Under the pieces are notes generated by a model. It ran no database searches and was not told where the DNA came from. It saw only the letters and a program-made list of their open reading frames with translations. Of a stretch of DNA of 64,000 nt, positions 22,366 through 63,711 are shown one piece after another. The stretch's first letter is position 1, and the number at the start of each line of letters is the position of its first letter. The translations under genes and the position numbers were made by a program. Origin of the DNA: Paraspadella gotoi. Taxonomy: Eukaryota; Animalia; Chaetognatha. The stretch is taken from the NCBI GenBank assembly GCA_051294375.1, contig CM119267.1, forward strand, positions 7,482,683 through 7,546,682. Reading direction: 5' to 3'.

Positions 22366-22461
22366 TTTAAACTATACCTAGAAAAAAATTGGTGGAAAAA
22401 AAAAATTCAAATTTCAACTTTAAGAAAAAAGTTTCATGGAAGCTTCTTAAAATTCTTTCAT

Positions 22462-22942
22462 TTAAACTTTGACGGCGAATTTTCTCTTGGGCCAAATCCT
22501 CGATTTGCGCTGATCCTTGTGGCTTTTAATGTTGAGCTCGGACTTCGTAAGGGCGCGCCGTTTAGCCCGCGTCAGCTTCTTTCGCAGATCCAACGGTTTG
22601 TTCTTCTTGTTCTTGTAAAACTTGCGCAGCTCGGCTTTCTGCTTCTGGTTGGTGACGGTCAACACGCGGGCGATCGACTTGCGAACGACGCGGATCTTGG
22701 AGAGTTTGCTCGGGGCGCCGCCTGAGAAAGTAAAAAAGATTTTAATATTATACAGATGAAAAAATTTTAATTAACACCATAGTTAACTAGTTTTGTTTCA
22801 AATATGACGTTAAGAATAAAATTTGGTTACCCGTGACTTTCGCGACCCTCAACGACGCAAGTTCTTGCTTCAATTCGTCCAACTGCTTCAACAAATCCTC
22901 CTTCTTCTTTCCCCTCAATTCGTGAGCTTTGACCTTCGCCAT
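22462..22942 (-). CDS. RPL35: 60S ribosomal protein L35 (uL29)
   Basis: [60 protein letters not shown]...[18 protein letters not shown]; one intron. Confidence 0.98.
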
Positions 22943-23065
22943 TTGTATGTTAAAATTTGTATCTTAAACTGGTAAAAAAACAACAGTTTTTTTTTAAAAA
23001 ATTCGTAAACAAACAACAAATAAAAGGTGTATAGCGTTTTATAAGGCAACCATTGTAAAATTATT

Positions 23066-26000
23066 TTAAGAATCGAGGACGGAAAGAATTTTTCTCAAGT
23101 ATTCCTCGTGTCTAACGACATCAAAATCCTCTTCCTCTTCCTCATCTCCCGACGTCCTTCTCATTTTGTAAAGCGTCTCTCGCGCCCTCTCTCGAAAGTC
23201 TGTGCCCTTGACGAGTACGGCGTTCTTGTGCGAGCCCGTGGCCAGCGTCCATAGCACGGCGCAGAAAATGAGCGACGTCTTTCTGGCGACGGGATCGAGT
23301 TCGAGTCTCGTGGCGGCGGCGACGGCGATAGGCAGCAGCCGGCGCGGCAGTGTCAGCAGGGTGGCATTTTTCGAAGAAAAGGAGAGATTGTGAATCACGA
23401 GCGCCGCCTTTTGACGCAATGACCGCGAGGCCGGCGTGGATTCGGGAAGTGAAAAAAACTCGAAGAGAGAGTCGACGCACGCCGTCTGTTGGAGCACCAT
23501 CGCTTGACCCTCAGGATCCAAGGTCAGGTTACAAATAAAGTCCAGCCAAGATGAATTGACTCGGAATCGGCTCGTTGCCTTCTTCGAGGTCAACCGCGCA
23601 AAGTGAGAAACAAAATTTGTCTTTTTGATGACCCCGCGAAACTCGGGAGAGACGGAGGCCATTTTACCTAAAACGACAAAGCAAAGTCGATGATCGGCGG
23701 AATTAGAATCTAATTCCTTTAGTCTAGATGCGTAAGTGAGCAAGGACTGAGCCAAAGAAGTAGTCGGCGGAAACGACACGCGGTTGGAGTCGTTCGAACA
23801 AAGAGATGCTCCGACCAACGTGCTGCGATTGTTGACGATGCAGCGAGCGATCCCTGCCGGATTGTCCGACGCGAAGGCACCGAGAATTCCGAAAAATGCT
23901 TCGTTTAGCCCCGAGTCGATCGACCGCCACGACCAAAGAGACTGTAACATGGCAGACATCTCCGACGACTGTCCGACGTTCTTCGCTTCGGCGCACTCGA
24001 TAAAAAGGTTTTGCAATATGCGCGAGTTTGACAAGAGTTGACACTTGACGCAATCTGAATCTGGCACGGAGCCGTCGGTCGAATGAGCGCCGTTCAAGCT
24101 GTCGACGACCAGGGCGTCGAGGAGACGGTTGGAGTTGTGGATGAGGGATTCGACAAGGCCGAAGTCGATCGCCGCGGATTTGGCGGTGGAGCTGACGGCA
24201 ACGAGGGTTTTGAGGAGATGGCCGGAAAAAGTTTGCAAAGGATTCGCTTTGAGAGGATGATCGAGGAGAGTAGGAATATAGTAAGCATACGTGACCTTTA
24301 GCATCTCGGCGCCGAAAGCTTCCTCAGTCTCCGAACCATAGGGAAGGTCCAACAAGCTGTCGAGTACTTCCAAGCATCTATTGTCTTTACCCATGCAAGT
24401 AAGGAGAGTAGCCCAGAAAGAGAAAAATTGAGTCTGGCGACCACGATCGAGTTTCGCTAAATTCGCAACGAAAAAGTGACACATTGAGTCTCTACTTTTG
24501 AGCAAATCCACAGCGACGACGTAAACTCCGAACATTTGGGAGCGAGAGAGAACGACAATTAACTTCGAGAGAAACGTTAGTAGAGAATCTAAAGTATCGA
24601 GCATGGATGGATGAAATAGGGAGAAACTTTTCTCCAAAAATCCCGAGTTTATCAATTCGCCAAGAAAATTTTTCAGTTCATCGTCCTCCGTAGATGATAG
24701 AAGGCAGTTCAAACAGTTAACGATAGAGTCATACAATTTAGGTAACTCTGTCAATGCTGATCGAAAGAGGCTTTCATCCACGAAAGTCCTTAGAAGACAA
24801 CCTAAAAAGATCTTTTTATCTGATTGATCTAAGGTCAAAAGCTTTTCTTCGTAAATGAAATAGAAGAGGTGACATTTGTATCGATATATGTCCAAGGTTT
24901 TCCTGAGACGTCGGGTCGTTAACAGTTGAAAACTTCTTTCGAAAGATTGAGAAAATAAAGAGCCATCCATGAGGCTGCGGATAGAGCCTCCCGTCAACAA
25001 CGGCATCATAAGCATCAAGCTTTTTAAATTTTCGACGACGACGGTCTCGTCGACTTCCCAGTCGTCCAGCGCAAGATGAAGGACGATTGGGACAAAGTCG
25101 GGACTTTTATGCAGAAGAACAGAAGCCGAGGGTCGAAAGGATAAAATTTGACGAAGAAAGAAGGACATTTTCTCCAGAATCGTTGTCTGACCAGAAAATA
25201 AGATAAGTATCCATCGCCAGTGACTGTCGTCGTCAAAAATGATCTCCGTCCAGAATTCATGGGCTTCTTCCTCTTGAAGATGGTGGTTTAACCAGCAAGC
25301 GGCGACAGAAAGGGCACGAAGGCAGCTTCCGGCAAAGAATAGTCCCGAACGAGAATCTTTGGACTCCTGCGAGTTCGTTGCGCGGCAAAGTATATTTCTT
25401 AGATAGAGACAGAGACGCTTGAGAGCTTCAGCCCTTTCGGGTTCAAAGTCGAAAAAACGTTTCACGATCGTCTGTGCGGCAAACTCCGTTGTCGCTGTCA
25501 ATAGAGGTATCAGGGAAGAGTCGTTGGTGTCCAAACCTGACCCCAACCAATTGACAACGCCCAACAATAGGTCGAAGGAAGGCGTGAAAATGATAAACTC
25601 CAGTAGACAACGGAGAAATCGAGGGGAGACTCGACTTTTCAAACTATTACAGACGAACTGGCAAAACGTCGTAGAAGAAATCGCGGTCGTGACCCAAGGA
25701 ATCTCATCCACATCCTGTAGTCGTAGGCTCAGCGACTCGAGAATAGAAATGGCAAGAATTTCATCCGCTTCGGAGCAAGGAACTGCGCGGAAAAATCTCT
25801 CCAAATCTTCTCCCGCTCGCTCAATCGCTCCAGAATATCGCAGGCGGGGAAGGGCGAGAAAGGTGACGGTTAGAGCCACATCCTCGTGACAAGAAGCGTC
25901 TTTGAGCCGACGCAATAGGGCCGAAATGAATTTATCGACGTCCATCTTCTGAGCGATCAGCTTTTCCGCTTCGGTGTAACTAAGAGGACCAACCTCTTCG

Positions 26001-62712: not shown

Positions 62713-62891
62713 CGTAAGGGAGGGCGAGGTTCTCGGCTAGGGGAATGAGGCTATATTTATCGTCCGTTTATGTCCAGTTTGTGGTTGTAGCGCATCGAAG
62801 GAACTTAAAACTTGATCGTTAAAACTGTAAAATAAAAAATTTAATAAACAATTGTGAAAGGCTCAGAACGCCCATGCGAGCGCACTGTGGA

Positions 62892-63639
62892 TCAATTCTT
62901 GATCTCCAGATAACGAGGCTGGGGTTTGGCCACTTTGCGGAACTGTTTCATCAAAGAAACGGGACACTGAACCTCGCACCACGAGTACGGAACCATGACA
63001 TGGCCGTCGGGGGAGTAAGCGACGACGACACCAAGTTCGTTTTCGGCCGTTGACAAGAGGTAAGCGTGAGCGTCGCCCAGAGACAAGACGCGGGCCACGA
63101 TCAGATCAGTCGGCTGGAAACATTTGTGGATCTCCACCTTGTCCTTCTCCGTGGCTCGAACATCCTCTTTCCGTACGAGGGCCCTGAAAGAGTCCGTTGC
63201 CGAAGCGCCGTCTACGCTAACGATCGAGCATTTGGCAAAGCGGGAGTTGATGGAAGTGACGCGAGCGATCACGATCGAGCCGACGAAAGGCACGACCGCT
63301 CGTTTTTCCCTGTTAAGAATGCAACTGAATTGGTTTCCTAATTTAAGGAAGCGATTTCTTGATTAAAAGAAACGGTTGGAAGCAAAACTGCACCCTCCAC
63401 ATCTTTCACCTCTCTACTGTTATCTCAAGAACGTGACTTCCGTTCCGCCTCGGGGTCGATCGATCCTCGGGGGCTTCCAGCCGCGGCTCAAGCCGTTTGA
63501 CGGCGAGTCGACCCCCCAAACTCGAGTAAATATAGCCTTGATGCTCATAACTTCCTTGTCCTGACGAATAGGGTTCAGTCGACCGACAAAGACGTTGTCC
63601 CGGCAACACGACCCTATTTACCAACAGATTGTCATTCAT
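62892..63639 (-). CDS. EXOSC1: Exosome complex component CSL4
   Basis: VLPGQRL...GQGSYEHQGYIYSSLGG, VPFVGSIVIARVT, RKEDVRATEKDKV, FQPTDLIVARVLSLGD, LSTAENELGVV, RKVAKP; 2 exons. Confidence 0.95.
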
Positions 63640-63711
63640 AGCGAGAAGCGGTTAACTTGAAACAAAACAAAAAATTGGTTTTATCACAGCAACATGGGAA
63701 CATCAGAAACG

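What the first reader, a model, noticed from the sequence alone, without database searches (positions are those of the whole stretch)
22366..63711. Ultra-short intergenic spacers ending in unpaired 3' splice acceptors just before the ATG (trans-splicing signature)
Seen, stop-to-ATG distances: OGFOD1>EXOSC1 72 nt, ZNF3>ZNF2 78, RPL35>TM protein 96, NOL11>ZNF3 103, RTTN>RPL35 123, EXOSC1>MORF4L1 179, EOGT>GNAT-B 211. A U-rich tract plus AG sits 12-26 nt before the ATG: tttttttctAG (22378), tttttttaccAG (22969), tttttatAG (55401), tttctttttAG (56922), ttttgtttcaAG (63656), ttttatttAG (39334), also cttttcAG (29219) and attttcAG (59042); in GFOD1 the AG is 1 nt before the ATG (7787). The shortest spacers leave no room for a 3' UTR, promoter, non-coding exon and intron. 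Known: this is how intercistronic regions look in spliced-leader trans-splicing organisms. Inference: these AGs receive a spliced leader.
Basis: partly seen in the sequence, partly recalled or inferred. Interest (0 to 1): 0.85.

Follow-up and report, generated by a model that had tools for sequence, protein, structure and literature searches.

The report
Operon-like gene chain, probable trans-splicing
In an unidentified small animal, 21 genes in a row face the same way, several only 72-211 bases apart with a spare splice signal just before the start codon, which likely marks operons cut into single messages by a trans-spliced leader, although the leader itself has not been seen.

Summary
All seven spacer lengths and nine AG positions are exact. 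All 21 genes found lie on the minus strand. Acceptor-like AGs 10-30 nt before the ATG occur in 11 of 20 genes, against 7-11% in controls. In the seven short spacers no usable donor was found. Spliced RNA contigs of one public run cross three spacers directly and three more by inference. Two begin on the base after the predicted AG (ZNF3, FOXRED2), and the NOL11 contig stops 3 nt before the ZNF3 AG. No leader sequence or SL RNA gene was seen, and most loose-end rows were not displayed. Best reading: operons resolved by spliced-leader trans-splicing (about 0.7), a known mechanism. The lineage could not be placed beyond 'probably protostome, no annotated relative', so whether this is a new phylum for trans-splicing is open. 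Acceptors in the long spacers often have good donors upstream and are not all unpaired. The scan noted similar clusters on other genomes, without RNA data.

The parts
1901..64000 (-). Run of 21 protein-coding genes, all on the minus strand (OGFOD1 3' end, EXOSC1, MORF4L1, NOL11, three C2H2 paralogues, FOXRED2, EOGT, two GNATs, WDR48, MICAL-like, RTTN, RPL35, TM protein, RRM gene, RAB7, KIF15, GFOD1, SPTLC2)
   Evidence: Gene models; Pfam; Atlas for NOL11. The names RTTN, RPL35, RAB7, SPTLC2, MICAL-like, FOXRED2, WDR48, KIF15 are recalled from the look of the translations, from no call. 22 plus-strand frames >=60 aa outside CDS were read by eye and none looked like a gene.
63640..63711 (-). OGFOD1>EXOSC1 spacer, 72 nt; acceptor AG at 63657-63656, 16 nt before ATG
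   Evidence: Score 7.4 bits; 54 nt from stop to AG, shorter than the shortest of 77 introns (57 nt). Crossing by contig 5 is inferred from its length and depth.
62713..62891 (-). EXOSC1>MORF4L1 spacer, 179 nt; AGs at 62826-62825 (strong, 112 nt before ATG, leaves one upstream ATG) and 62738-62737 (weak, 24 nt)
   Evidence: contig 5 is collinear over 62561-63308.
59028..59983 (-). MORF4L1>NOL11 spacer, 956 nt; AG at 59043-59042, 14 nt before ATG; a good donor lies at 59131
   Evidence: contig 4 runs unspliced over 58080-59871 and is the only contig in that depth bin.
56897..56999 (-). NOL11>ZNF3 spacer, 103 nt; AG at 56923-56922, 25 nt before ATG; NOL11 contig ends at 56926, ZNF3 contig begins at 56921
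   Evidence: Score 8.4; contigs 3 and 4; the bin depth 117.6 is fully explained by these two.
55382..55459 (-). ZNF3>ZNF2 spacer, 78 nt; AG at 55402-55401, 19 nt before ATG
   Evidence: Score 5.4; contig 3 is collinear over 54071-56921 with no mismatch.
52612..53371 (-).
   Evidence: Score 6.9; contig 2 is collinear over 50107-54041.
48929..48970 (-). FOXRED2 5' end; AG at 48953-48952, 23 nt before ATG; contig 1 begins at 48951
   Evidence: Score 7.1; start computed from the pieces and joints.
41876..41915 (-). EOGT 5' end; AG at 41900-41899, 23 nt before ATG
   Evidence: Score 5.9; contig 1 has 2464 nt beyond the FOXRED2 stop, so it is inferred to reach into EOGT.
39321..39531 (-). EOGT>GNAT-B spacer, 211 nt; AG at 39335-39334, 13 nt before ATG
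   Evidence: Score 6.7; best donor in the spacer at the 3rd percentile. No RNA laid.
29194..29240 (-). RTTN 5' end; AG at 29220-29219, 25 nt before ATG, in a 430-nt spacer
   Evidence: Score 10.3; best donor at the 4th percentile. No RNA laid.
22943..23065 (-). RTTN>RPL35 spacer, 123 nt; AG at 22970-22969, 26 nt before ATG
   Evidence: Score 8.0; best donor 1.0 bits, below every cis donor. No RNA laid.
22366..22461 (-). RPL35>TM-protein spacer, 96 nt; AG at 22379-22378, 12 nt before ATG
   Evidence: Score 7.3; no donor found. No RNA laid.
7786..7870 (-). GFOD1 5' end; AG at 7788-7787 (1 nt before ATG) and a stronger AG at 7856-7855 (69 nt, leaves one upstream ATG)
   Evidence: Scores 6.0 and 11.0; the start codon agrees with relatives P0130-P0132; a good donor exists in this long spacer.

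Best explanation
The window holds 21 same-strand genes whose shortest spacers end in donor-less splice acceptors, and these are likely operons: one precursor RNA would cover several genes and would be cut into single mRNAs by joining a spliced leader at each AG. Shown: gene order, spacer lengths, acceptor enrichment, absence of donors in short spacers, spliced RNA contigs that cross spacers, two contigs that begin at AG+1. Inferred: single precursor molecules, leader addition, and 3' end formation of the upstream mRNA at or just before the acceptor (Ciona-like at NOL11>ZNF3). The run is probably several operons in tandem, with new promoters in some long spacers, for example before FOXRED2.
For: Acceptor enrichment 11 of 20 against 7-11% in controls. 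In the 7 short spacers, no donor in 3 and best donor at or below the 3rd percentile of cis donors in 4; stop-to-AG is 54 and 57 nt at EXOSC1 and ZNF2, against a shortest intron of 57 nt. 21 genes on one strand; 18 units after collapsing tandem paralogues, about 1e-5 if orientation were independent. Run X1 is spliced RNA: 13 of 15 displayed joints are introns. Single contigs cross EXOSC1>MORF4L1, ZNF3>ZNF2 and ZNF2>ZNF1 directly; OGFOD1>EXOSC1, MORF4L1>NOL11 and FOXRED2>EOGT are inferred from length, depth or an intervening CT repeat. X1 holds 0.81 of the sampled words of 54001-64000; exons plus spacers predict 0.78, and 0.63 without the five spacers. Contigs 3 and 1 begin at AG+1, the two gene-start contig ends seen outside repeats. 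No AATAAA in the 10 spacers <=430 nt (3.7 expected, P 0.024), as reported for most Ciona operons (PMC1488885). The base after the AG is G in 50 of 77 cis acceptors but 2 of 17 5' acceptors.
Against: No leader was seen: 0 of 6 displayed X1 loose ends lie at an acceptor, and depth arithmetic leaves no extra laid contig at 56922, 55401, 59042, 52639 or the MORF4L1 AGs. At those last four, one collinear contig passes with no break. A contig across two genes does not show a single transcript, and a filter can drop contigs, so the gap at 56925-56922 proves nothing (the tool's own cautions). A start exactly at AG+1 would need a leader not ending in G, which is uncommon (recalled; the acoel leader in PMC9911081 ends in A). 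A weak donor at 56988 would give a 67-nt cis-intron ending at 56922. Good donors lie in the last 300 nt of the upstream CDS for MORF4L1 (7.8) and GNAT-B (11.6). 9 of 20 genes lack the signal in the 10-30 nt band. One run, one study; no RNA below 44001. T after AG is partly composition (153 of 476 spacer AGs).
Confidence: 0.7

Rival explanations
1. Ordinary single-gene transcripts in a compact genome: promoters lie inside the upstream gene, UTRs overlap, and the AGs end cis-spliced 5' UTR introns or are the T-rich ends of 3' UTRs.
For: Overlapping UTRs alone can merge assembly contigs. Good donors exist in 7 of the long spacers and inside the upstream CDS for MORF4L1 and GNAT-B. 31 joints were hidden. 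A 67-nt intron from 56988 would also give a non-G base before 56921.
Against: It needs promoters inside coding exons at many consecutive genes and does not explain 21 genes on one strand. Best donors in the last 300 nt upstream of the previous stop score 0.6 (ZNF3), 2.5 (RPL35), 2.7 (TM protein). Contig 4 runs unspliced through 56988-56926 and across the 59131 donor.
Confidence: 0.15
2. Polycistronic units whose genes are reached by cis-splicing of one shared upstream non-coding exon to alternative acceptors, as in the adenovirus late unit (recalled).
For: Same predictions for donor-less spacers, one strand and contigs beginning at AG+1.
Against: It would need very long skips over many internal splice sites in a genome with median intron 90 nt. 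The only long joint displayed (48966-63733) has non-splice ends and 22 letters on one side.
Confidence: 0.06
3. Stable polycistronic mRNAs that are never resolved; downstream frames are read by reinitiation or internal entry, and the AGs are incidental.
For: Fully cis-spliced contigs cross several spacers with no break at the acceptor.
Against: It does not predict acceptor enrichment or contigs starting at AG+1. Unresolved dicistronic cDNAs also occur in SL-resolved Ciona operons (PMC1488885).
Confidence: 0.07

Closest known systems
Ciona intestinalis SL-resolved operons and C. elegans SL1-type operons (PMC1488885, passages read)
   Same: Unrelated same-strand genes; upstream 3' end abutting the acceptor (here the NOL11 contig ends 3 nt before the ZNF3 AG); unresolved dicistronic RNA detectable; AATAAA mostly absent.
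   Different: EXOSC1 here does not group with Ciona. Ciona operons are mostly two genes and rarely hold ribosomal protein genes; here RPL35 sits between two short spacers. No leader identified here.
C. elegans SL2-type operons (PMC7986045, PMC12582326, passages read)
   Same: Short same-strand spacers near 100 nt with an acceptor just before the downstream ATG.
   Different: There about 100 nt separate the poly(A) site from the acceptor; here 54-95 nt from stop to AG must hold the whole 3' UTR. No SL2-like leader or fixed TTTTCAG consensus is seen; 5' acceptors end in TAG, CAG or AAG.
Operons of the chaetognath Paraspadella gotoi (PMC12460157), flatworms (PMC12582326) and Oikopleura dioica (via PMC7986045, PMC1488885)
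   Same: Housekeeping genes under 250-300 bp apart on one strand; ribosomal protein genes included in chaetognath and Oikopleura operons.
   Different: The longest chaetognath operon has nine genes. Here at most three genes are linked by spacers <=250 nt, but 21 share a strand and contigs cross spacers of 760-956 nt.
Trypanosome polycistronic gene clusters (PMC7986045, PMC12582326, passages read)
   Same: Long run of unrelated genes on one strand.
   Different: This is an intron-rich animal (86 modelled introns); 9 of 20 genes lack a near acceptor, and a promoter-like region lies before FOXRED2.

Membership tests
SL trans-splicing / SL-resolved operon | Closely spaced same-strand genes | tested here: met
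   7 spacers of 72-211 nt; 21 of 21 genes found on one strand.
SL trans-splicing / SL-resolved operon | Acceptor without a cis donor upstream of the downstream ATG | tested here: met
   Met for 6 of 7 short spacers in the 10-30 nt band, the seventh at 112 nt; not established for long spacers.
SL trans-splicing / SL-resolved operon | One precursor RNA covers both genes | tested here: inconclusive
   Spliced contigs cross 3 spacers directly and 3 by inference, but contigs are not molecules.
SL trans-splicing / SL-resolved operon | Common non-genomic leader joined at the AG | tested here: inconclusive
   0 of 6 displayed X1 loose ends at an acceptor, 268 rows hidden, contigs only; two contigs begin at AG+1.
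SL trans-splicing / SL-resolved operon | SL RNA gene (leader, GT donor, Sm site, hairpins) in the genome | not testable with these tools
   No genome is held. None in the window: Rfam gave 4 sub-threshold unrelated hits; donor-plus-Sm scan gave 4 hits against 2.3 in shuffles, 2 of them real intron donors.
SL trans-splicing / SL-resolved operon | Trimethylguanosine cap on recipient mRNAs | not testable with these tools
   Needs bench work.
Ciona / SL1-type operon (no intercistronic DNA) | Upstream poly(A) site abuts the acceptor | tested here: inconclusive
   One junction: NOL11 contig ends 56926, ZNF3 contig starts 56921; no poly(A) tail displayed.
C. elegans SL2-type operon | About 100 nt between poly(A) site and acceptor, with a dedicated second leader | tested here: not met
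   Stop-to-AG is 54-95 nt in 5 spacers, too short for a 3' UTR plus 100 nt. Leader type untested.
Trypanosome-type directional gene cluster | All genes co-transcribed and all trans-spliced | tested here: inconclusive
   One strand throughout, but 9 of 20 genes lack a near acceptor and no displayed contig bridges ZNF1>FOXRED2.

The most novel reading that the evidence does not exclude
An animal group with no reported trans-splicing organises its genes in long one-directional, intron-rich polycistronic clusters (21 or more genes, 62 kb or more), resolved by a leader that does not end in G, with upstream 3' ends made at the acceptor.
Probability: 0.2. Interest if true: 0.85.

Novelty: new member of a known kind. 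Interest (0 to 1): 0.55.

Why it matters
How often SL trans-splicing arose in animals is an open question that rests on which phyla have it. This animal's EXOSC1 and GFOD1 have only unnamed close relatives, so it may fill an unsampled branch. The predicted acceptors give base-exact sites for finding the leader in an existing public run. Operons would also make RNA-based annotation of this genome fuse neighbouring genes.

Tried and rejected
No genome is held, so no genome-wide test. Lineage: the EXOSC1 tree (47 rows, chosen from 120 hits plus the query) puts the window with unnamed P0001-P0005 at 100/100, inside a weakly supported protostome group and apart from Ciona, cnidarians and the sampled arthropods; flatworms, rotifers, nematodes, acoels and gastrotrichs were not among the rows. 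0 of 14 and 0 of 18 cluster members read carry a name. The C2H2 N-terminal motif gave no hit in two searches and 4 in a third, 2 plausible and unnamed. Metagenome scan: 45 loci, none from the close clade and none with a second window gene. Runs X2 and X3 gave 3 and 0 short pieces. No listed holder is on record as RNA; X1 was shown to be RNA by its joints. The 48966-63733 joint was rejected as a leader (non-splice ends, low complexity). Rfam, ARAGORN and the Sm scan found no SL RNA. 9 doubtful introns of 86 were dropped before training; my GFOD1 model is truncated and the KIF15 3' end is uncertain. Nine literature searches listed no report of SL splicing in gastrotrichs, catenulids, gnathostomulids or kinorhynchs; a gastrotrich genome paper (PMC11660948) and a gnathiferan preprint (10.64898/2026.06.08.730799) hold 0 occurrences of 'trans-splic' and 'operon'. 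The library lacks most subscription papers and no supplements were read, so this is not proof of absence.
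Full report
Setting. The window is animal DNA, 42.6% GC, 53% coding. I modelled 20 genes plus the 3' end of OGFOD1, all on the minus strand, with 86 introns. Pfam supports OGFOD1, EXOSC1, MRG, C2H2, GT61, two GNATs, WD40, kinesin and GFO/IDH/MocA; NOL11 is weak in Pfam and the top Atlas hit at 0.90. Other names are recalled. No genome is held.

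Seven of seven spacer lengths and nine of nine AG positions match. With a matrix trained on 77 cis-introns, 11 of 20 start codons have an acceptor of at least 5 bits 10-30 nt upstream. Controls give 10.6% (spacers), 8.3% (introns), 18 of 255 non-coding ATGs, 2-4 of 20 in four other bands, and 0 of 5000 shuffles reach 11. The band was picked after looking; the first test (<=40 nt) gave 10 of 20, P 4e-4. ZNF1, FOXRED2 and EOGT carry the signal too; nine genes do not.

Are the acceptors unpaired? In the seven short spacers three have no donor and four have one at or below the 3rd percentile of real donors; RTTN is at the 4th. At EXOSC1 and ZNF2 only 54 and 57 nt lie between stop and AG, and the shortest intron is 57 nt. 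In long spacers ordinary donors exist, including one 89 nt before the NOL11 AG, so those sites cannot be called unpaired from sequence. Inside the upstream CDS the best donors are poor for ZNF3, RPL35 and the TM gene, middling for EXOSC1 and ZNF2, and good for MORF4L1 and GNAT-B.

RNA. One public run, X1, holds 0.81 of the sampled words of 54001-64000. Laid on 44001-64000 it is spliced RNA: 13 of 15 displayed joints are introns. Single contigs cross EXOSC1>MORF4L1, ZNF3>ZNF2 and ZNF2>ZNF1. Three more crossings are inferred: OGFOD1>EXOSC1 from the length and depth of contig 5, MORF4L1>NOL11 from two contigs meeting at a CT repeat, FOXRED2>EOGT from 2464 nt left after the FOXRED2 stop. Two junctions are not bridged in the displayed rows. 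At NOL11>ZNF3 one contig ends at 56926 and the next begins at 56921, the base after the AG; the bin depth leaves no third contig. Contig 1 begins at 48951, the base after the FOXRED2 AG (computed).

What that means. One path is the genome (G). The other would be a leader not ending in G, or a cis-spliced exon. Most leaders end in G (recalled); the acoel leader ends in A (PMC9911081). Where unprocessed RNA bridges a spacer, a short leader would be clipped as a tip and the contig would pass through, as seen at four or five acceptors. This fits trans-splicing but does not show it. No displayed loose end (0 of 6 for X1; 268 rows hidden) lies at an acceptor, 31 joints were hidden, and the tool warns that holes and cross-gene contigs prove nothing. 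Nothing below 44001 was laid.

Further signs. No AATAAA occurs in the ten spacers of 430 nt or less, 3.7 expected, P 0.024; most Ciona operons lack it too. G follows 50 of 77 cis acceptors but 2 of 17 5' acceptors; T follows 9 of 17 (P 5e-4), partly through composition. A promoter-like region (CCAAT-like at -1172, TATA at -1080) precedes FOXRED2, where contig depth rises from 49 to 342; depth is a poor measure of expression. So the run is more likely several units in tandem than one.

Mechanism. Most likely, a precursor covers several genes, introns are cis-spliced, and a leader is trans-spliced at the AG 12-27 nt before each downstream ATG, while the upstream 3' end forms at or just before the same AG. 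I put this at 0.7, against 0.15 for overlapping single-gene transcripts, 0.07 for unresolved polycistronic mRNA and 0.06 for a shared cis leader.

Comparison. SL-resolved operons are described in nematodes, tunicates, flatworms, chaetognaths and cnidarians, and SL splicing in an acoel and a glass sponge. The one junction with visible ends resembles the Ciona or SL1 type; SL2-type spacing is not met. It works like an SL operon; membership is not proven because the leader is missing. Papers seen: passages of PMC7986045, PMC9911081, PMC10282587, PMC12460157, PMC1488885, PMC11660948; passages and Introduction of PMC12582326; term counts and two passages of 10.64898/2026.06.08.730799; the rest as search listings only. 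No supplements were read.

Lineage and novelty. EXOSC1 groups only with five unnamed proteins (100/100) among protostomes, GFOD1 has three unnamed hits at E<=1e-30 among longer proteins, and no member read carries a name. Small-bodied phyla without annotated proteomes are candidates (my knowledge, untested). Nine searches listed no SL report for gastrotrichs, catenulids, gnathostomulids or kinorhynchs, with the library limits noted. The mechanism is known; the possible novelty is the lineage and the 21-gene one-strand run. The scan's earlier notes describe similar two- and three-gene clusters on other genomes without RNA, and nothing on this genome. Verdict: real feature, new member of a known kind, interest 0.55.

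Noticed in passing
window 1901-64000 (-): All 21 genes found lie on one strand; no plus-strand gene was recognised.
   Followed up: partly
window 44300-44500 (-), FOXRED2 intron 6: Repeat with tRNA-like A and B boxes (by eye), probably a SINE; summed contig depth up to about 25,000 in run X1.
   Followed up: no
window 48430-48700 and 46010-46260: Two copies, in opposite orientation, of a second tRNA-like repeat in FOXRED2 introns.
   Followed up: no
window 51043-56896 (-): Three tandem intronless C2H2 genes share an N-terminal motif (alignment A2) found in only two unnamed proteins and as a 35-nt match in run X2; ZNF2 holds a 27-nt tandem repeat.
   Followed up: partly
window 60673-60743, 40272-40339 (-): GC-AG introns: 3 of 77, the MORF4L1 one confirmed by RNA.
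   Followed up: partly
window 23066-28632 (-): RTTN ends in a single exon of about 5.6 kb; NOL11 and EXOSC1 have one intron each, suggesting heavy intron loss.
   Followed up: no
window 49990-50200 (-): Promoter-like island (CCAAT-like, TATA) 1.1 kb before FOXRED2; the ZNF1 contig ends at 50107, about 800 nt past its AATAAA.
   Followed up: partly
window 1480-1580 (-): Strong T-tract AG followed 11 nt later by an ATG and a short frame: an unmodelled exon or gene start after SPTLC2.
   Followed up: no
window 57855-58007: Extra contig depth in this bin, none in the next: part of the NOL11 intron may be transcribed on its own.
   Followed up: no
window 21900-21960 (-): The TM-protein exon 2 contains a short tandem repeat read as a His/Ile-rich stretch; this exon boundary may be wrong.
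   Followed up: no
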